Program-made: the position numbers and the translations under genes | The notes under the pieces: model-generated | Seen by the model: the letters and a program-made list of their open reading frames with translations, nothing else | Database searches by the model: none | What the model was told of the DNA's origin: nothing | Part shown: piece after piece, positions 47,185-53,983 of the stretch | How positions within the stretch are numbered: the stretch's first letter is position 1 | Layout of the letters: each line of letters opens with the position of its first letter | Source: an uncultured bacterium | GTDB lineage: Bacteria > Eisenbacteria > RBG-16-71-46 | Assembly: GCA_964650245.1 (NCBI GenBank) | Contig: CAZYQK010000002.1 | Coordinates: forward strand, 1 to 53,983 | Direction: 5' to 3' | DNA: 53,983 nt

Positions 47185-50100
47185 GTGCAGCGAGCGATCC
47201 CCCCCGATCTGACTCATGCTCACCTCTCCGCTCAAGAGGGAGCGCTGCAGCACGAGGCGATCGGCAATCTGCATCTGGCCGCGGACAACTTCTCGGGTGC
47301 GGCCGATGCCTACGTGGCGGCCCTGCACCAGCTGGGCCCCGAAGCCCCCCATGACCGGTCTCGGCTGCTCCTGCTTCTGGCCGAGGCCCACGTCCATCGA
47401 GGCGACTTCGAATCCGGATCGAAAGTCTTGAGGGAAGCGCGCGAGCTCGCGCGCCTGCTCGACGATCCCCGCATACGCGCGCGCATCGCCGCGCGGCTGG
47501 CGCATGCGCTCACCGAGCTCGGCCACTACCGCCGGGGGCGGCACTACGCGCTCTACGCGTACCGCGTCTTGAGGGACAGCGACGAGCATCGCACCGTGGG
47601 CCAGGTCGGCGTGCAGCTCGGTGTCTGCTGCTCCCGGCTGGGGCGCGTGCCGGAAGCGATCGAGTGGCTGCAGAACGCGGCCGCCACCTTCCGGCGGATC
47701 GACGACACGGAGGGGCTGGTCACCGCGCTCAACAACCTCGGCATCGTCTACAAGAATTTGCGCGACTGGCGAGAAGCCACGCGCTGCCTCGAGCAGGCCC
47801 TGCGCCTCGACGAGCGCGCGGGGCTTTACGCTCGGATGCGGCCCACCTACCAGAACCTCGGGCTGATCCGCTACCGCCTGGGGCAGTGGGATCTGGCCGA
47901 GGAGAACTTCCGCCATTCCATGAAGATCGCGCGTGAGACCGGGCACCTCCAGGGCGAGGCCGCCGCGCTGCTCGCGGTCGGCATGCTCTGCCGGCGGCGC
48001 CGCCAGTTCGACCGCGCAGAGGATCACTTCCGGCGCGCGATGGCGCTCTCCACCCAGGTCGGGGCGCAGCGCGAGACCATGCTGGGGCGCGAGTTCCTCG
48101 CTGAAGTCGAGCTCGATCGCGGCAACGGCGACGCCGCCCTCGCGCTGCTGGAGCCCACGCTCGAGGAAGCCCGGCTCATGGCGCCGGAGGGCGACATGGT
48201 CACCGAGCTCGAGACCCGCACCGGGATGGCCCTGCTTCAGCTGGGCCGAACCGAGGACGCGCTCCCCCACCTGCTCAGCGGCGCGATGCTGGCCGAGCGG
48301 CTCGGCGACCGTGTCGAACAGGCCTACGCCGAGCGTGCCCTCGCGCGCCTCGACGCGGTGCGCGGCAACAGCACCGGACTCGAGGCCAGGCTCCACGCAT
48401 CCGCGCAGTGCTTCGACGAGCTGGGTGAGGTTTACGAGCTCGCGGCTTCGCTCGCCGCCTGGGGCGAGTACCTGTTCCTGCTCCCGGCCAGCGTGCGGAT
48501 GCGCGTGCCGCTCGAGCCGGTCGCCGACGCGGCCAAGCGTGCCTCTGCGCTGTTCCGCCAGCTGGGGGTCACGCCGCTCGCCGCCGAAGCGATGCTCAAT
48601 CACTCGCGCCTCGAGGCCGAGCGTGAGCACTTCGATCAGGCGCTCTCGATCCTGGAGCAGGCCGAGCAGTGGCTCGCCGAGTCGGGCGACCCCGAGACCC
48701 GCGACCGTGCCGAGACGCTGCGCCGCGAGCTTGAACGTCAGTACGTCGCGGTCTCGCTCTCGACCTGCAACGAATTCCGGGCGCTCGACGAGGCCAACCG
48801 GTTGTTCCGTGAGACCGCCGACATGGACGGGCTGCTCAGCCAGGCGGTGCGGCTCGCGGTCGAGAACGCGGGCGGCGACCGTGGCTTCGTGGCCTACAGC
48901 AGCGGTGGCGGCCGGCTCGACGTCGTCGCGCAGCACGGCCTGGGCCGCGACCGCGCGCGCCGCGTCCTCAAGGTGATCGAAGGCGTGTGCGGATCACGCA
49001 TCGCCGAGTGCGGCCCGGTGTTCTCGAGCCGCGTTGCCGCCGATCCCCGTTTTCACGCGGCGATCGCGGACGCGCTCGAAGGCGTCGGCTCGCTGGTGTG
49101 CGTGCCGCTCAACTTCCCGTCGCAATCCATGGGTCTGGTTTACGTGGACCGCCTCAACGACAACCTGCTCGGCCCCTTCAGGCAGCGCGAGCTCAATCTG
49201 CTCGCGGTGCTGGCGAACAGTGCAGCGGTGGCGATCGTCGAGGCCCAGCGCTCACGGCTGCTCGAGGAGAACAAGCAACTGCGCGACAAGCTGCGTCCGG
49301 CGCCGGGCAGCGAGCGCATCATCTCCCAGTCGCGCGAGATGGCCAACATCCTCGCGCTGCTCGGAAAGGTGGGCGACAGCTCTGCCACCGTGCTGTTTAT
49401 CGGCGAGACCGGGACCGGCAAGGGCCTGCTGGCCCAGGTCGTTCACGAGATCTCGAACCGGCGCGACGGGCCGTTCGTGCAGGTCAACTGCGCGGCGCTG
49501 CCGGAGCAGCTGCTGGAGAGCGAGCTGTTCGGCTACGTTCACGGCGCGTTCACCGGTGCCACGCGGGACAAGACCGGGCTCTTCGAGGAGGCCGAGGGCG
49601 GCACCATCTTCCTCGACGAGATCGAGAAAGTGCCGGAGACGGTGCAGGCCAAGCTCCTCCACGTCCTCGACCGCGGGGAGATTCGCCCGGTCGGAGCCAC
49701 CCGCAGCAAGCATGTGAACGCGCGAGTCATCTGTGCGACCGGCTGCGATCTGCGCGACCGCATCAAGGAGGGGCGCTTCCTCGAAGATCTCTACTACCGG
49801 CTCAACGACATCACGGTTCGGGTCCCGGCGCTGCGGGAGCGGCGCGAAGACGTTCCGGTGCTCGCCCAGCACTTCCTGACCCTGTACTCGCGGCAGATGG
49901 AGAAGACGCTGCGCGGCTTCTCGCCCGGCGTGGTGCAGGCGTTCCTGGAGCACGCATGGCGCGGCAACGTGCGCGAGCTCGAGAAGACGATCAAGCGCAT
50001 GGTGGTGCTGGCCGACGAGGGGGACTCGCTGGAGGTGGAACTGCTGCCGCCCGAGATGCGCGAGGTCGGCGCCGCCCCGACCGAGAAGCCGAACGGCAAG

Positions 50101-52558: not shown

Positions 52559-53983
52559 ACCGGAATACGTTGTGGAGCGCGGCCGCGTTGCTGGTTCTGG
52601 CGCTGGCGCCGAGCCCGGCCGGCGCGCGCGGCCTCTCGGTCGACGTGTGGACCGACCGCGGAAACGACGCGGTTTACCAGCCCGGCGACGAGATGCAGGT
52701 CAAGGTGCGTGCCTCGGAAGACGCCTACACGCTGGTCTACGAGATCGACGCCGAGGGCTACGTCCACGTGCTGTTCCCCTATCAGGGCCGGAGCGGGTTC
52801 ATCGAGGGCCGGCACACGTACCGGATCCCCGCCGACGATGCGGACGTCTCGCTCGCGGTCCAGGGTTCGGTGGGGCAGGCCTACATCGTGGCGATCGCCT
52901 CCGGTGATCCGTTCGAACCCCTGCCCTGGTACCTGCGGCCATACAACGCACAGGCCGAGGGCGTGGGCTACGTCGGGAAGCCCGAGGACGAAGAGGGCGT
53001 GACCGGCGAAGGCCGCATCGTGGGCGATCCGTTCGTGGCGATGGAGCGCATTCGGCGGCGCGTGCTCAAAGACCCCGACGATCCCCACCAGTTCGCCACC
53101 ACCTACGCCTCGTACTACGTGCACAACGAGGTGCGCTATCCGCGCTACATCTGCTACGACTGCCACCGGCCGGGGCGCTGGGCGTGGTGGGACGGGTTCG
53201 ACCCCTACTACTCGCAATGCAGCGTGTTCGACTTCCGCGTCAACCGGTCGTGGTACTGGGGCTCGAGCTACTGGTTCGGGCACGTGCCCTATTTCGTGTT
53301 CGTCTACCGCACCGACTGCCCGCCCCGCTACTACCGCTACTACAACCAGGGCTACTGGTACTCGTCCTGGGACGGCTGGCCGCGCTGGTGTGACCTGTGG
53401 GGCACCTCCACGCTCACCCGCTACAAGTCGCCCCCGCCGCCGGGCTACGTGCCGCCCGCGAAGTTCGGGCCGCGCACCAACTGGGGGCCCGCGCAGCCCG
53501 CGCCGCCGGGATTCCTGGTGAGCGAGACGCGCAAGCGTGACGGCCTGCGCACCCCGCTCCCGATCGGGCGCAATTCCGAGGCGCGGGGCGGAGAGAGCGG
53601 AGCCGATCGCTTCACCGGTGGCTTGCGAAAGTGGGGCGAAGGGCGGCTGCCATCGAGCCAGCCTCGCGACGAGGAGTCCAGCGCGCGCGGCCAGGGCGGG
53701 TCCGAGCGTCCGCGGTCCGAGGGCCGGCCGATGCCGAGCCACCAGCCGCGCGAGGAGGCCGCGCCGCGCGCCGTTCCGCGGCGCCAGGAGAACCCGTGGC
53801 CCGGCGTCCAGCGTCCGCGCGAGGAAAAGCCGGCGCCGGCGCCGGCGCCCGCGCCCAGAGTCGAGCCCCGGCGCGAGGAACGCCCCGCACCGCAGGCCGC
53901 TCCGCCGCGCGACGAACGGCGGCGTGAGCCGGCGCCCGCGCAGAAGCCGCGAGAGGAAGCGCCGGCCCGCGCCGCCGTTCGTC
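52555..53983 (+). CDS. secreted DUF4384-domain protein with the same Cys-rich module and a disordered Pro/Arg/Glu-rich tail (runs off the right edge)
   Basis: ATG at 52555 follows GGAAGGAG and overlaps the previous stop (ATGA). The frame is open to the window end, so it is absent from the ORF track. My translation gives MNRNTLWSAAALLVLALAPSPAGA|RGLSVDVWTDRGNDAVYQPGDEMQVKVRASEDAYTLVYEIDAEGYVHVLFPYQG (DUF4384 pattern), then YPRYICYDCHRPGRWAWWDGFDPYYSQCSVFDFRV, then PREE/PAPAPAP repeats. Confidence 0.75.
   Translation, partial: MNRNTLWSAAALLVLALAPSPAGARGLSVDVWTDRGNDAVYQPGDEMQVKVRASEDAYTLVYEIDAEGYVHVLFPYQGRSGFIEGRHTYRIPADDADVSLAVQGSVGQAYIVAIASGDPFEPLPWYLRPYNAQAEGVGYVGKPEDEEGVTGEGRIVGDPFVAMERIRRRVLKDPDDPHQFATTYASYYVHNEVRYPRYICYDCHRPGRWAWWDGFDPYYSQCSVFDFRVNRSWYWGSSYWFGHVPYFVFVYRTDCPPRYYRYYNQGYWYSSWDGWPRWCDLWGTSTLTRYKSPPPPGYVPPAKFGPRTNWGPAQPAPPGFLVSETRKRDGLRTPLPIGRNSEARGGESGADRFTGGLRKWGEGRLPSSQPRDEESSARGQGGSERPRSEGRPMPSHQPREEAAPRAVPRRQENPWPGVQRPREEKPAPAPAPAPRVEPRREERPAPQAAPPRDERRREPAPAQKPREEAPARAAVR

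What the first reader, a model, noticed from the sequence alone, without database searches (positions are those of the whole stretch)
47185..53983. Self-contained sigma-54 module: a TPR-GAF-AAA+ activator, two sigma-54 promoters in a 930-bp spacer, and an exported Fn3-lipoprotein / Cys-module lipoprotein / DUF4384 trio
Seen directly:
- A 1027-aa enhancer-binding protein with a very large TPR array and a GAF domain in place of a receiver domain. This implies direct signal sensing rather than phosphorelay.
- It ends in an intrinsic terminator.
- It is followed by the only long low-coding spacer in the window (50269..51196), which carries two -24/-12 matches on the same strand.
- The second match is a perfect TGGCACG-N4-TTGC, 48 nt upstream of three tightly packed genes (9-nt gap, then an ATGA overlap). 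All three encode exported proteins: two lipoboxes and one type-I signal peptide.
- None of the three products has a family-assigned function that I recognise. They carry Fn3 plus an unknown domain, an unknown Cys module plus a charged tail, and DUF4384 plus the same Cys module plus a disordered tail.

Established: enhancer-binding proteins usually act on promoters next to their own gene.

Inference: this is one regulon-in-a-box encoding an uncharacterised envelope or periplasmic system, switched on by a cytoplasmic ligand sensed through TPR-GAF. The cluster continues beyond the window edge.
Basis: partly seen in the sequence, partly recalled or inferred. Interest (0 to 1): 0.8.

Follow-up and report, generated by a model that had tools for sequence, protein, structure and literature searches.

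The report
Sigma-54 switch with hidden structured RNA

Summary
The window holds a TPR-GAF-AAA+ sigma-54 activator, its terminator, a 928-bp non-coding gap with two -24/-12 promoters, and three tightly packed genes for exported proteins.

Comparative data change the reading of the gap.
- **Promoter 2** (51135-51149) is kept in front of the first lipoprotein gene ("A") in Eisenbacteria and in several other phyla. An activator gene also sits directly upstream in several of them, though its sensor type differs.
- **Promoter 1** (50467-50481) does not serve the operon. It is invariant in 89 of 89 metagenome contigs and starts a ~347-nt structured RNA (50493-~50839).
- **The RNA** has strong covariation: 20 of 42 pairs show compensatory changes in 87 distinct sequences.
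- **The RNA** ends in its own hairpin and has no Rfam match.
- **The RNA's position is fixed.** It always lies between this activator and gene A (68 of 68 upstream, 65 of 69 downstream).
- **The shared "Cys module"** of proteins B and C carries an invariant CXXCH, the c-type haem motif.
- **A fourth gene**, a FadL/PorV-like barrel, follows in relatives.

The functions of the proteins and of the RNA remain unknown. Verdict: a new RNA family and a new sigma-54 envelope operon, arranged like CbrB-CrcZ.

The parts
46735..47064 (+). Small exported protein (109 aa) with a signal peptide and a Trp-rich C-terminal end. It is kept directly upstream of the activator gene in Eisenbacteria. Whether it belongs to the module is uncertain.
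   Evidence: ORF. My own HMM ('small104') finds it in the same position in L002-L018. No Pfam family matches its L002 orthologue.
47185..50268 (+). Sigma-54 enhancer-binding protein, 1027 aa: TPR array, GAF, AAA+ domain with GAFTGA, and Fis-type HTH. It has no receiver domain, and I saw no hydrophobic membrane-spanning stretch by eye.
   Evidence: Pfam; NCBIfam matches are all below the equivalog cut-offs; motifs; orthologues of 998-1036 aa sit in the same position.
50277..50297 (+). AT-rich near-palindrome (CTATAAAA-N-TT-ATA) just after the activator's stop codon, about 190 nt upstream of promoter 1. It is a possible protein-binding site.
   Evidence: Visible in most of the 15 aligned spacers. 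A strict regular expression finds it in 22 of 81 metagenome contigs. Its function was not tested.
50301..50341 (+). Intrinsic terminator of the activator gene: a 14-bp interrupted stem, loop ACUUA, then UUUUU.
   Evidence: Fold at -28.5 kcal/mol, z -3.8; inverted repeat I12.
50467..50481 (+). Promoter 1, a sigma-54 -24/-12 element (TGGCATG-N4-CTGC) that drives the non-coding RNA.
   Evidence: TGGCA and TGC are invariant while the spacer between them varies, in 15 of 15 genome loci and 89 of 89 metagenome contigs. The distance to the RNA's invariant GGAGG is fixed at 14-15 nt (16 nt in one contig).
50493..50839 (+). Structured non-coding RNA of about 347 nt, a new family.
- 5' hairpin GGAGG[G-rich loop]CCUCC at 50497-50513.
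- 14-bp helix at 50544-50557 / 50622-50635, which encloses two covarying helices and the invariant GGGUACGAGCCC hairpin.
- Variable middle part.
- 3' domain: a long hairpin at 50748-50834 with the invariant GGGGGAUG (50786-50793), followed by a U-rich run.
   Evidence: - Conservation in the spacer.
- RNAalifold: 12 of 42 and 11 of 23 pairs show compensatory changes.
- Pair counts and controls.
- Covariance model R1 hits once per locus at 98-147 bits for full-length matches.
- No Rfam match at E <= 1.
- No open frame is preferred and there is no 3-base periodicity.
- The window copy folds with z -3.6.
- The 5' end is inferred from the promoter and the 3' end from the hairpin.
50843..50985 (+). 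GC-rich insertion between the RNA's 3' hairpin and the upstream palindrome. It is absent from most relatives; L012, L017 and L009 carry shorter inserts at the same place.
   Evidence: Gap in 11 of the other 14 aligned loci. It contains CCCCCCCATCCG, which is complementary to the RNA's 5' hairpin (I11).
50986..51007 (+). Palindrome GGTGTGGCGCCGGCCGCACACC, a candidate upstream activator-binding site for promoter 2.
   Evidence: Palindrome I8. GTGT-N-ACAC lies 144-178 nt upstream of promoter 2 in 9 of 15 genome loci and 116-171 nt upstream in 37 of 67 metagenome contigs. Binding was not tested.
51135..51149 (+). Promoter 2, a perfect sigma-54 -24/-12 element (TGGCACG-N4-TTGC) that drives genes A, B, C and, in relatives, D.
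   Evidence: Unique exact match in the window, 0.05 expected. Kept upstream of gene A across phyla. Strict form in 67 of 74 metagenome contigs and relaxed form in 73 of 74.
51197..52024 (+). Gene A: a 275-aa lipoprotein made of an Fn3 domain (with two invariant Cys) and a second beta-sandwich domain. It is the conserved core of the sigma-54 unit.
   Evidence: 1448 homologues, about 60% identical over the full length. AlphaFold2 pLDDT 79.5. Foldseek finds only generic tandem-Fn3 matches. Found in many FCB-group and related phyla.
52034..52558 (+). Gene B: a 174-aa lipoprotein carrying the CXXCH-containing Cys/aromatic module and an Arg/Glu-rich tail. It is optional within the clade.
   Evidence: The block RPxxSYxCYDCH...DPYYDxC is conserved across 19 sequences, with C-Y-D-C-H and the later Cys invariant. 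The family has only 139 proteins and 19 representative clusters. No Pfam or PDB match. Absent from L004, L010, L012 and others.
52555..53983 (+). Gene C, more than 476 aa and cut by the window end.
- Signal peptide.
- DUF4384 (an Ig-like sandwich).
- Cys/aromatic module with CXXCH: 15% Tyr and 10% Trp.
- Pro/Arg/Ala/Glu-rich disordered tail.
   Evidence: - Pfam.
- C200, C203, H204, C222 and C255 are invariant in 28 sequences.
- In the AlphaFold2 model the module at residues 192-310 has pLDDT 22-40.
- Foldseek finds nothing at E < 1e-3.
- Composition.
- The closest homologue is 469 aa, so only a few residues are missing.

Best explanation
This is a conserved sigma-54 regulatory module of Candidatus Eisenbacteria with two outputs.

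**Layout.**
1. The gene for a cytoplasmic TPR-GAF-AAA+ enhancer-binding protein ends in its own terminator.
2. About 125 nt after the terminator, a sigma-54 promoter (P1) starts a ~347-nt highly structured non-coding RNA that ends in a long hairpin with a U-rich tail.
3. Next comes a palindrome that is probably an activator-binding site.
4. About 130 nt further on, a second, consensus sigma-54 promoter (P2) drives an operon of exported proteins:
   - lipoprotein A (Fn3 plus a second beta-sandwich);
   - lipoprotein B (CXXCH module);
   - periplasmic C (DUF4384, CXXCH module and a disordered tail);
   - in relatives, a FadL/PorV-like outer-membrane barrel, D.

**Shown.** Both promoters, the RNA and its structure, the fixed gene order, and the link between gene A and sigma-54 across phyla.

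**Inferred.**
- The adjacent activator assembles on upstream sites, hydrolyses ATP to open sigma-54 holoenzyme at P2 and probably at P1, and so switches on the envelope proteins and the RNA together. It would do this when a small ligand binds its GAF domain and/or a partner protein binds its TPR array.
- The RNA most likely acts in trans as a regulatory RNA that spreads the response to other genes, as CrcZ does for CbrB, Qrr for LuxO and GlmY for GlrR.
- The proteins most likely form an envelope-associated complex. They may be redox-active through c-type haem on B and C, and may be linked to envelope maintenance, because DegP-type protease genes recur nearby.
For: **Activator.** It carries all the hallmarks of the class.

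**P2.**
- Unique exact consensus in the window.
- Found within 125 nt of gene A's start in 19 of 22 long-activator loci, against a 3.1% background.
- Found in WOR-3, TA06, Stahlbacteria, Zixibacteria, Ignavibacteria, Hydrothermota and Gemmatimonadota.
- Strict form in 67 of 74 metagenome contigs.

**Synteny.**
- The TPR-GAF activator lies directly upstream of A in every Eisenbacteria and Krumholzibacteriota locus long enough to show it.
- A different, short activator lies upstream of A in Zixibacteria, Ignavibacteria and Hydrothermota; a Cache-PAS kinase gene is next to it in Zixibacteria.

**P1.** Invariant TGGCA...TGC with a variable spacer in 89 of 89 contigs, 14-15 nt (16 nt in one contig) before the RNA's invariant GGAGG.

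**RNA.**
- The 5' domain is 94.7% paired, with 20 of 42 pairs showing compensatory changes in 87 distinct sequences. None of 500 shuffles reached this, and sliding the partners dropped pairing to 29-52%.
- The 3' domain is 94% paired, with 12 of 23 pairs compensatory.
- One copy per locus, always on the plus strand between activator and A.
- The 3' hairpin is followed by at least 5 T in the next 10 nt in 52 of 71 contigs.
- It is not coding.

**Spacer length.** The 750-1056 bp gap is kept in all loci with the long activator and is absent where the activator is short, 138-250 bp.

**Upstream palindrome.** It lies 116-171 nt before P2.

**Precedent for an activator gene beside its own sigma-54-dependent small RNA.** CbrB directly activates crcZ and crcY (PMC6296734). 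LuxO-Qrr: PMC4878744 was listed but not read.

**Sigma-54 and the cell exterior.** PMC3162934.

**DegP-like genes near A.** They occur close to A in several phyla.
Against: - No transcript data exist. The 5' and 3' ends of the RNA and the use of both promoters are inferred from sequence.
- P1 and P2 have no obvious common upstream site: an AT-rich element lies before P1 and a GTGT...ACAC palindrome before P2. One activator for both promoters is therefore not shown.
- A response-regulator-type activator and its kinase are also conserved nearby.
- About a quarter of the 3' hairpins have a weak U-run, so read-through into the operon is possible.
- rpoN was not seen, because only 54 kb of this genome is available (one search is uninformative).
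- The protein functions are guesses:
  - no Pfam, PDB or Foldseek match beyond generic beta-sandwiches;
  - the CXXCH module could not be modelled;
  - much of the Eisenbacteria synteny may reflect shared ancestry rather than function.
Confidence: 0.7

Rival explanations
1. The structured RNA is not a separate gene. It is a long cis-acting leader, of the riboswitch or protein-controlled attenuator type. P1 transcripts would read through the 3' hairpin into genes A-D when a signal prevents termination, and P2 would be a second, proximal promoter.
For: - The RNA is on the same strand as the operon and always directly upstream of it.
- The U-run after the 3' hairpin is weak (4 or fewer T in 10 nt) in 19 of 71 contigs.
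- A large RNA with an invariant core is typical of ligand-binding RNAs.
Against: - A strongly conserved consensus sigma-54 promoter with its own upstream palindrome lies between the RNA and gene A.
- Apart from that palindrome, the 290 nt between the hairpin and the gene (about 150 nt in most relatives) are poorly conserved.
- The 3' stem is a perfect 16-bp helix in the window, and most copies have a T-run.
- I found no alternative anti-terminator pairing.
Confidence: 0.15
2. One reading: the 930 bp are regulatory spacer DNA only, and both sigma-54 promoters serve the exported-protein trio.
For: Both promoters lie on the operon strand, and nothing in the spacer is coding.
Against: - About 350 nt downstream of P1 are conserved at 72-84% nucleotide identity across relatives whose A proteins are only 50-77% identical.
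- Pairs covary while loops vary, which selection on DNA sites alone does not explain.
Confidence: 0.03
3. One or both promoters are activated not by the adjacent TPR-GAF protein but by the conserved two-component activator encoded about 5 kb upstream (response regulator with AAA+ domain at 40858-42213 and HAMP histidine kinase at 42217-43857, minus strand). The TPR-GAF protein would then act elsewhere or on only one promoter.
For: - That kinase and activator pair is present at the same relative position in Eisenbacteria loci.
- The sequences upstream of P1 and P2 differ.
- In other phyla gene A lies next to a short, probably two-component-type activator.
Against: - The RNA and the long spacer co-occur strictly with the TPR-GAF type of activator.
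- Activators usually act next to their own gene (established knowledge).
- In Krumholzibacteriota loci the TPR-GAF gene remains adjacent although the wider neighbourhood differs.
Confidence: 0.2
4. B and C are monohaem c-type cytochromes. Together with the outer-membrane barrel D and lipoprotein A they would form a small redox module at the cell envelope, comparable in layout to porin-cytochrome conduits or to Cyc2.
For: - C-x-x-C-H is invariant while the two x positions vary (CYDCH, CNDCH, CSDCH, CEDCH, CADCH, CTQCH) in both paralogous families. This includes a Krumholzibacteriia copy.
- Both proteins are exported.
- His directly after the second Cys is the hallmark of haem c attachment (established knowledge).
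- AlphaFold2 cannot fold the module without a cofactor.
- Eisenbacteria genomes are reported to encode Cyc2 homologues and cytochrome c oxidase, so haem c maturation is plausible in this phylum (PMC9769843).
Against: - There is no similarity to any cytochrome family in Pfam or the PDB.
- There is no conserved second His or Met to serve as distal ligand.
- C homologues in Zixibacteria, Ignavibacteria and WOR-3 carry a PEGA domain instead and have no CXXCH.
- B is dispensable in many loci.
- A Cys3-His metal site or disulfides could explain the same conservation.
Confidence: 0.3

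Closest known systems
CbrB-CrcZ/CrcY of Pseudomonas, and similarly LuxO-Qrr of Vibrio and GlrR-GlmY of enterobacteria
   Same: - An NtrC-family sigma-54 activator directly activates a small regulatory RNA gene from a -24/-12 promoter.
- It also activates protein-coding operons from other -24/-12 promoters (PMC6296734).
- That the RNA gene lies next to the activator gene (crcZ beside cbrB, qrr1 beside luxO) is from my own knowledge; the search for that phrase in the paper found nothing.
   Different: - The RNA here has no Rfam match at all, so it matches none of these RNA families.
- It is far more structured, with invariant helices rather than repeated short protein-binding motifs.
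- The activator senses through TPR and GAF domains instead of a receiver domain.
- The RNA's mode of action is unknown.
NifA / NorR / FhlA class of GAF-containing sigma-54 activators
   Same: The GAF, AAA+ (GAFTGA) and Fis-type HTH order. The best NCBIfam similarity is to NifA and NorR.
   Different: - All scores are far below the equivalog cut-offs, for example NifA 323.6 against 528.85.
- About 530 residues of TPR repeats (MalT-like) precede the GAF domain.
- No nif, nor or hyc genes are nearby.
Psp (phage-shock) response: PspF with sigma-54-dependent envelope-stress genes
   Same: A sigma-54-dependent unit that encodes envelope-located proteins and sits near protein quality-control genes: DegP in Eisenbacteria and other phyla, hrcA-grpE-dnaK-dnaJ in Ignavibacteria.
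   Different: - No PspA, PspB or PspC homologues are present.
- The products are exported lipoproteins and periplasmic proteins, not inner-membrane-associated cytoplasmic proteins.
- The stress link here rests only on gene neighbourhood.
Large structured bacterial RNAs of unknown function found by comparative genomics (OLE, GOLLD, ROOL, raiA class)
   Same: - Several hundred nucleotides long.
- Multi-helix architecture with invariant nucleotides and clear covariation.
- Narrow phylogenetic range and a fixed gene neighbourhood.
- No known function (my own knowledge of that class; see also PMC11109978, listed but not read).
   Different: - No sequence or structure match to any of them in Rfam 15.
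- This RNA has an identifiable dedicated sigma-54 promoter and an adjacent activator gene, which gives a direct experimental handle.
Porin-cytochrome conduits (Geobacter OmbB-OmaB-OmcB type) and Cyc2
   Same: The layout on paper: an outer-membrane barrel (D), a periplasmic CXXCH protein (C) and a CXXCH lipoprotein (B), all in one operon.
   Different: - There is only one CXXCH per protein, not eight to twelve.
- There is no homology to those families.
- D has only weak FadL/PorV-like matches.
- Haem binding is unproven.

Membership tests
Bacterial enhancer-binding protein (sigma-54 activator, NtrC/NifA superfamily) | AAA+ sigma-54 interaction domain (Pfam PF00158) above the curated threshold | tested here: met
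   215.2 bits against a cut-off of 20.2, residues 712-878.
Bacterial enhancer-binding protein (sigma-54 activator, NtrC/NifA superfamily) | GAFTGA loop that contacts sigma-54, plus Walker A and Walker B motifs | tested here: met
   GAFTGA at residue 787, GETGTGK at 740, DEI at 811.
Bacterial enhancer-binding protein (sigma-54 activator, NtrC/NifA superfamily) | C-terminal Fis-type DNA-binding HTH | tested here: met
   HTH_8, 38.8 bits against a cut-off of 22, residues 979-1016.
Bacterial enhancer-binding protein (sigma-54 activator, NtrC/NifA superfamily) | ATP-dependent activation of sigma-54 holoenzyme at a target promoter | not testable with these tools
   Needs in vitro transcription or reporter assays.
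NifA (TIGR01817 equivalog) | Score above the NCBIfam equivalog cut-off | tested here: not met
   323.6 bits against a cut-off of 528.85. NorR scores 321.2 against 476. It is not a NifA or NorR orthologue.
Sigma-54 (-24/-12) promoter | GG and GC dinucleotides with the canonical spacing, close to TGGCAC-N5-TTGC | tested here: met
   P2 matches exactly, with 0.05 expected by chance. P1 is TGGCATG-N4-CTGC with the correct spacing.
Sigma-54 (-24/-12) promoter | Conservation of the element at the orthologous position while flanking and spacer bases vary | tested here: met
   - P1 in 89 of 89 contigs.
- P2 strict form in 67 of 74 contigs and relaxed form in 73 of 74.
- P2 in 19 of 22 long-activator loci and 13 of 29 other-phyla loci, against 1-3% background.
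Sigma-54 (-24/-12) promoter | Transcription start about 12 nt downstream of the GC, dependent on rpoN | not testable with these tools
   There are no transcript data. rpoN is not within the 54-kb window, and no RpoN-box motif occurs in the 1.9 Mb of loci held (uninformative).
Any described RNA family (Rfam 15, including CrcZ, Qrr, GlmY/Z, 6S, RNase P, tmRNA, SRP and riboswitches) | Covariance-model match at the gathering score, or at least at E <= 1 | tested here: not met
   No match in 50200-51300 at E <= 1. At gathering score the whole window yields only tRNA-Met.
Structured non-coding RNA (generic criteria) | Conserved secondary structure supported by compensatory base changes beyond controls | tested here: met
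   - 5' domain: 20 of 42 pairs compensatory in 87 sequences, 94.7% paired, 0 of 500 shuffles as good, 29-52% paired when partners are slid.
- 3' domain: 12 of 23 pairs compensatory.
- Caveat: alignment A6 was fitted to the model. The independent MAFFT/RNAalifold alignments give the same helices.
Structured non-coding RNA (generic criteria) | Absence of protein-coding signal | tested here: met
   No frame is preferentially open, there is no 3-base periodicity of substitutions, and no frame has coding-type GC3.
Sigma-54-dependent trans-acting small RNA next to its activator gene (CrcZ/Qrr/GlmY type of arrangement) | Own sigma-54 promoter, own 3' end, and a gene adjacent to an activator gene | tested here: met
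   The 3' end is inferred from the hairpin plus T-run, which is good in 52 of 71 contigs.
Sigma-54-dependent trans-acting small RNA next to its activator gene (CrcZ/Qrr/GlmY type of arrangement) | Acts in trans on mRNAs or on a regulatory protein | not testable with these tools
   A test for pairing with gene A's 5' UTR was negative. GGA motifs are not enriched according to my own estimate, which was not computed with a tool.
c-type cytochrome | CXXCH motif in an exported protein | tested here: met
   Invariant in B (19 sequences) and in C (28 sequences). Both proteins have signal sequences.
c-type cytochrome | Homology to a known cytochrome c fold or family | tested here: not met
   No Pfam, NCBIfam or PDB hit. 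The module has pLDDT 22-40.
c-type cytochrome | Covalently bound haem, and a haem maturation system in the genome | not testable with these tools
   Only indirect support: Eisenbacteria genomes are reported with Cyc2 homologues and cytochrome c oxidase (PMC9769843).
DUF4384 (PF14326) | Pfam match above the gathering score | tested here: met
   62.7 bits against a cut-off of 27, residues 40-118 of C.
Fibronectin type III domain (in A) | Pfam fn3 match above the gathering score | tested here: not met
   19.8 bits against a cut-off of 25.
Fibronectin type III domain (in A) | Fn3 fold by profile or structure comparison | tested here: met
   The family profile hits fibronectin 6mfa at E 8.7e-8. The AlphaFold2 model matches single Fn3 domains at TM 0.6-0.8 normalised to the target.
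FadL / PorV / UPF0164 outer-membrane barrels (gene D, in relatives only) | Family match above the curated threshold | tested here: inconclusive
   - L004 copy: UPF0164 26.2 bits against 21.4 (above threshold), PorV 19.7 against 27, Toluene_X 17.6 against 29.7.
- L002 copy: UPF0164 18.2 bits against 21.4.

The most novel reading that the evidence does not exclude
The ~350-nt RNA may be a new class of large structured RNA with a biochemical role of its own, binding a metabolite or a protein rather than only base-pairing. It would then be the primary output of the TPR-GAF activator. In the same reading, the co-induced B, C and D proteins would form a minimal haem-based redox conduit across the outer membrane of an uncultured phylum.
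Probability: 0.12. Interest if true: 0.85.

Novelty: new variant of a known kind. Interest (0 to 1): 0.66.

Why it matters
**A testable new RNA.** The locus provides a well-supported new structured RNA family in a phylum with no cultured members. Unusually for such RNAs, its promoter type and a probable dedicated activator are identifiable. Expression can therefore be forced and studied in a heterologous host.

**A widespread sigma-54 target.** An uncharacterised lipoprotein family (A, more than 1400 members) is a recurrent sigma-54 target across Eisenbacteria, Krumholzibacteriota, Zixibacteria, Ignavibacteria, WOR-3, TA06, Hydrothermota and Gemmatimonadota. This extends the proposed link between sigma-54 and the cell exterior to the FCB-group candidate phyla.

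**Sensor swapping.** A TPR-GAF activator stands in front of this operon in some phyla, and a short activator, next to a histidine kinase gene in Zixibacteria, stands there in others. The same output has been wired to different inputs.

**A candidate metal or haem site.** The invariant CXXCH in an otherwise unrecognisable aromatic-rich module marks a possible new haem- or metal-binding domain.

Tried and rejected
- **Extending the contig.** The only record that encodes protein B is a 2951-bp contig that ends about where the window ends. Downstream content was therefore inferred from relatives.
- **Known RNA family.** There is no Rfam hit at E <= 1.
- **Small protein in the spacer.**
  - Rejected on GC3, open-frame and periodicity tests.
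  - The ORF starting at the invariant GGGGGATG is not kept in relatives: reading by eye, L007 stops after 10 codons.
- **RNA pairing with gene A's 5' UTR** (suggested by inverted repeat I4). RNAduplex energies were not better than shuffles in most loci (z between -2.6 and +0.8, and below -2 in only two loci), and the pairing positions differed between loci. Rejected.
- **CsrA/RsmA-type sponge.**
  - The hairpin GCA[CUGGGGGA]UGU resembles the SELEX site as I recall it.
  - However, the six or so GGA motifs in 350 nt match my rough composition-based expectation of about 6.5, which was not computed with a tool. No support.
- **Extending the RNA family to deeper lineages.**
  - Covariance model R1 with filters off gives no credible hit in L035 or L062, and only weak hits in L030 and L040.
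  - Those loci still have a P1-like promoter and a long spacer.
- **Function of A and C from structure.** Only generic Fn3 and Ig-like sandwiches were found. The Cys module was not modelled.
- **Function of B from remote homology.** The family is tiny and restricted to Eisenbacteria, with nothing in the PDB.
- **rpoN in the held DNA.** No RpoN-box motif occurs in 1.9 Mb, which is uninformative.
- **A shared upstream site for P1 and P2.** None was found.
- **Literature.** No paper links Eisenbacteria with sigma-54 or with non-coding RNAs. DUF4384 is uncharacterised in the literature.

Full report
**1. What is in the window**

The window is about 70% G+C. Homologues of its genes are named Candidatus Eisenbacteria, so it most likely comes from a metagenome-assembled genome of that uncultured phylum.

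- 47185-50268 encodes a 1027-aa protein. It has many TPR hits, a GAF domain (residues 544-684), a sigma-54 interaction domain (712-878, E 6e-64), an AAA lid and a Fis-type HTH, and no receiver domain.
- GAFTGA, Walker A and Walker B are intact.
- It is not an orthologue of NifA, NorR or any other named activator, because all NCBIfam scores fall far below the equivalog cut-offs.
- The gene ends in a good intrinsic terminator at 50301-50341 (z -3.8).
- Three genes follow after 928 bp: A at 51197-52024, B at 52034-52558 and C from 52555 to beyond 53983. The 9-nt gap and the ATGA overlap are as described.
- A and B have lipoboxes and C has a signal peptide, all read by eye.
- C has DUF4384 above Pfam's threshold. 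A's Fn3 is below threshold in Pfam but is confirmed by a profile match to fibronectin and by an AlphaFold2 model (pLDDT 79.5), which shows an Fn3 domain plus a second beta-sandwich.

**2. The promoters**

*Within the window.*
- The exact TGGCACG-N4-TTGC at 51135-51149 (P2) is unique, with 0.05 expected by chance.
- The upstream match at 50467-50481 (P1, TGGCATG-N4-CTGC) belongs to a class that is no more frequent than chance: 40 found against 50 expected. Taken alone it proves nothing.

*Comparative evidence for P2.* I collected 60 genome loci that encode full-length relatives of A and 93 metagenome contigs.
- A P2-type element lies within 125 nt of A's start in 19 of 22 loci that carry the long activator (random-window background 3.1%).
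- At a strict score it does so in 13 of 29 loci from other phyla (background 1.0%). These are WOR-3, TA06, Stahlbacteria, Zixibacteria, Ignavibacteria, Hydrothermota and Gemmatimonadota.
- Many of the remaining loci carry TGGCAC-N5-TTGAT-like variants 17-49 nt from the start. Most Poribacteria loci lack a site; L044 is the exception.
- In the metagenome contigs the strict form is present in 67 of 74 and a relaxed form in 73 of 74.

*Comparative evidence for P1.*
- It is present in all 15 aligned genome loci.
- It is present in 89 of 89 metagenome contigs that have enough upstream sequence. T-G-G-C-A and T-G-C are invariant, the bases between them vary, and the distance to the next conserved block is fixed at 14-15 nt (16 nt in one contig).

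Both promoters are therefore under selection.

**3. The "spacer" is an RNA gene**

*Spacer length.* The activator-to-A distance is 750-1056 bp in every locus with the TPR-GAF activator. It is only 138-250 bp where a short activator precedes A.

*Sequence conservation.*
- Inside the long spacers, blastn and MAFFT reveal a block conserved at 72-84% nucleotide identity. The A proteins of the same relatives are only 50-77% identical.
- The block begins right where a P1 transcript would start, near 50493.
- It ends with a long hairpin (arms 50748-50763 and 50819-50834, 16 of 16 complementary) followed by a T-run.

*Structure of the 5' domain (RNAalifold).*
- An invariant hairpin GGAGG[G-rich loop]CCUCC.
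- A covarying hairpin.
- A 14-bp helix that encloses two covarying helices and an invariant GGGUACGAGCCC hairpin.
- In total 42 pairs, of which 12 show compensatory changes in 15 sequences.

*Structure of the 3' domain.* It has 23 pairs, 11-12 of them compensatory.

*Controls.* None of 500 column shuffles reaches the observed values. Sliding the pairing partners by 1-3 columns drops pairing from 94-96% to 29-54%.

*Covariance model.*
- A model of the 5' domain (R1) hits exactly once per locus in 17 core Eisenbacteria genome loci, at 110-144 bits.
- It hits all 93 metagenome contigs.
- On those 87 distinct sequences, 20 of 42 pairs carry compensatory changes (193 cells) and 94.7% of cells are paired. 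That alignment was fitted to the model, so it leans towards the structure. The independent alignments agree.

*Other properties.*
- The motif GGGGGAUG in the 3' domain is present in 80 of 80 sequences.
- The median length to the end of the 3' hairpin is 347 nt (range 302-413).
- At least 5 of the next 10 bases are T in 52 of 71 contigs.
- No frame is preferentially open, substitutions show no 3-base periodicity, and no frame has coding-type GC3.
- The window copy folds with z -3.6.
- Rfam 15 gives no match at E <= 1.

*Genomic context.* The context is fixed.
- The TPR-GAF activator is the next gene upstream on the same strand in 68 of 68 contigs with room to show it.
- Gene A is the next gene downstream in 65 of 69. 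I attribute the other four to open frames mislabelled by my script, for example A and B read as one frame; I did not re-examine them individually.

*Deeper lineages.* L030, L035, L040, L052, L059 and the Krumholzibacteriota locus L062 keep a strong P1-like promoter 186-361 nt into the spacer, counted from the activator's stop codon, and a long spacer. The model does not recognise their sequences. The family as defined is therefore restricted to core Eisenbacteria.

**4. The operon and its proteins**

*Gene order.*
- In relatives it is A, an optional B, C and then D. D is about 330 aa, with weak UPF0164, PorV and FadL matches, so it is probably an outer-membrane barrel. A convergent metallophosphoesterase gene follows, then DegP and an Amidase_3 gene.
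- The cluster therefore continues by one gene beyond the window.
- The pairing of A with C recurs in WOR-3, TA06, Stahlbacteria, Zixibacteria and Ignavibacteria. There C is DUF4384 plus a PEGA domain and is followed by a small membrane protein.
- Deep Eisenbacteria and Krumholzibacteriota insert a ~1100-aa FG-GAP protein with a type IX secretion sorting domain between C and D.

*The Cys module.*
- B and C share a module (hhalign probability 95%).
- It contains an invariant C-x-x-C-H followed by DPYYxxC. The x positions vary: CYDCH, CNDCH, CSDCH, CEDCH, CADCH and CTQCH.
- A His directly after the second Cys in an exported protein is the signature of c-type haem attachment. Eisenbacteria genomes are reported with Cyc2 homologues and cytochrome c oxidase (PMC9769843).
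- Against this reading, there is no similarity to any cytochrome family and no conserved distal ligand. AlphaFold2 leaves the module unmodelled (pLDDT 22-40).
- I rate haem binding at about 0.3.

*Other points.*
- The B family is tiny: 139 proteins and 19 representative clusters among 1.84 billion.
- DUF4384 is uncharacterised in the literature.
- DegP-like genes lie near A in Eisenbacteria, Krumholzibacteriota, Gemmatimonadota, Poribacteria and, more weakly, Zixibacteria.
- In Ignavibacteria the unit is followed by hrcA-grpE-dnaK-dnaJ.
- This is a hint of an envelope-maintenance context and nothing more.

**5. How it most likely works**

*Shown.*
- Two conserved sigma-54 promoters.
- A conserved structured RNA between them.
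- A fixed order of activator, RNA and operon.
- A cross-phylum link between gene A, a sigma-54 promoter and an adjacent activator whose sensor type differs between phyla.

*Inferred.*
- The TPR-GAF protein binds upstream sites. The candidates are the palindrome GGTGTGGCGCCGGCCGCACACC at 50986-51007, which lies 116-178 nt before P2 in many loci, and possibly the AT-rich near-palindrome at 50277-50297 before P1.
- On receiving a signal through its GAF domain (a small ligand) and/or its TPR array (a partner protein), it opens sigma-54 holoenzyme at P2 and probably at P1.
- The RNA is then made together with the envelope proteins. By analogy with CbrB-CrcZ (PMC6296734), LuxO-Qrr and GlrR-GlmY, it acts in trans.

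*Open points.*
- P1 and P2 do not share an obvious upstream site.
- A second activator with its kinase is conserved about 5 kb upstream.
- "One activator for both promoters" is therefore only about 0.6 likely.
- A cis-acting leader role for the RNA cannot be excluded (0.15).

**6. Comparison with the known, and novelty**

- The arrangement of an activator gene, its sigma-54-dependent RNA and sigma-54-dependent operons is a known kind.
- The following are not described in Rfam 15, Pfam, NCBIfam, the PDB or the papers I could search:
  - the RNA family;
  - the A and B protein families and the Cys module;
  - the TPR-GAF sensor architecture in this role.
- I therefore file the locus as a new variant of a known kind.
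- Interest is moderate to high. The RNA is a solid new structured-RNA candidate with an unusual experimental handle, and gene A is a widespread, unrecognised sigma-54 target. No function is established for either.

Noticed in passing
window 50843-50985: A GC-rich ~140-nt insertion lies between the RNA's 3' hairpin and the upstream palindrome. It is absent from most relatives; L012, L017 and L009 carry shorter inserts at the same place. It contains CCCCCCCATCCG, which is complementary to the RNA's invariant 5' hairpin sequence CGGAGGGGGGGG with one mismatch (I11).
   Followed up: partly
window 51062-51072: A second exact copy of GGGGGATGTCC, the RNA's invariant 3'-domain motif at 50786-50796, lies about 65 nt upstream of promoter 2 (D6). 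It is not conserved in the aligned relatives.
   Followed up: partly
window 50301-50341 and the aligned loci: The loop of the activator's terminator hairpin (ACUUAG) is conserved in sequence across many loci. This is unusual for a plain terminator. With the AT-rich palindrome at 50277-50297, it may be a 3'-UTR element or a protein-binding site.
   Followed up: no
window 46735-47064 (+): A 109-aa exported protein with a Trp/Arg-rich C-terminal end is conserved immediately upstream of the TPR-GAF activator in Eisenbacteria. No family matches its orthologue. It could be a partner of the TPR domain or belong to the signal input.
   Followed up: partly
window 40858-43857 (-): A two-component pair, a response regulator with a sigma-54 AAA+ domain and a HAMP histidine kinase, is conserved in the same relative position in Eisenbacteria loci. 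This puts a second sigma-54 activator within 5 kb.
   Followed up: partly
window 39165-~40600 (-): A gene that my GC3 filter missed has coding-type GC3 (0.89). I judged its product to be a possible outer-membrane barrel only from reading the translation, which ends in F; it was not scanned against Pfam.
   Followed up: no
window 2487-6116 (-): A 1210-aa protein combines an MMPL (RND-type) transporter domain with a C-terminal LolA-like lipoprotein-carrier domain, which is an unusual fusion.
   Followed up: no
window 10765-12483 (+) and 16028-18574 (+): There are more signalling genes: an FHA-GAF-SpoIIE (PP2C) phosphatase and a Ser/Thr kinase fused to PD40 beta-propeller repeats. An ECF sigma factor lies at 34764-35342.
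   Followed up: no
L052 10752-14132; also L035, L040, L058, L062, L066: In deep Eisenbacteria and Krumholzibacteriota lineages a ~1100-aa FG-GAP repeat protein with a type IX secretion C-terminal sorting domain sits between C and the PorV/FadL-like gene D. This suggests that D may act as a PorV-like cargo shuttle there.
   Followed up: partly
L024 11687-17386, L042 12783-18596: In Ignavibacteria the unit of A, C and a small membrane protein is followed directly by hrcA-grpE-dnaK-dnaJ-prmA (Pfam run on L024; L042 shares the same gene clusters in the same order). In Poribacteria gene A is followed by DUF5683, DUF3108, mfd and DegP-like genes, and most loci have no sigma-54 promoter.
   Followed up: partly
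window 31758-31834 (-): tRNA-Met (anticodon CAT) is the only Rfam or ARAGORN hit in the window.
   Followed up: yes
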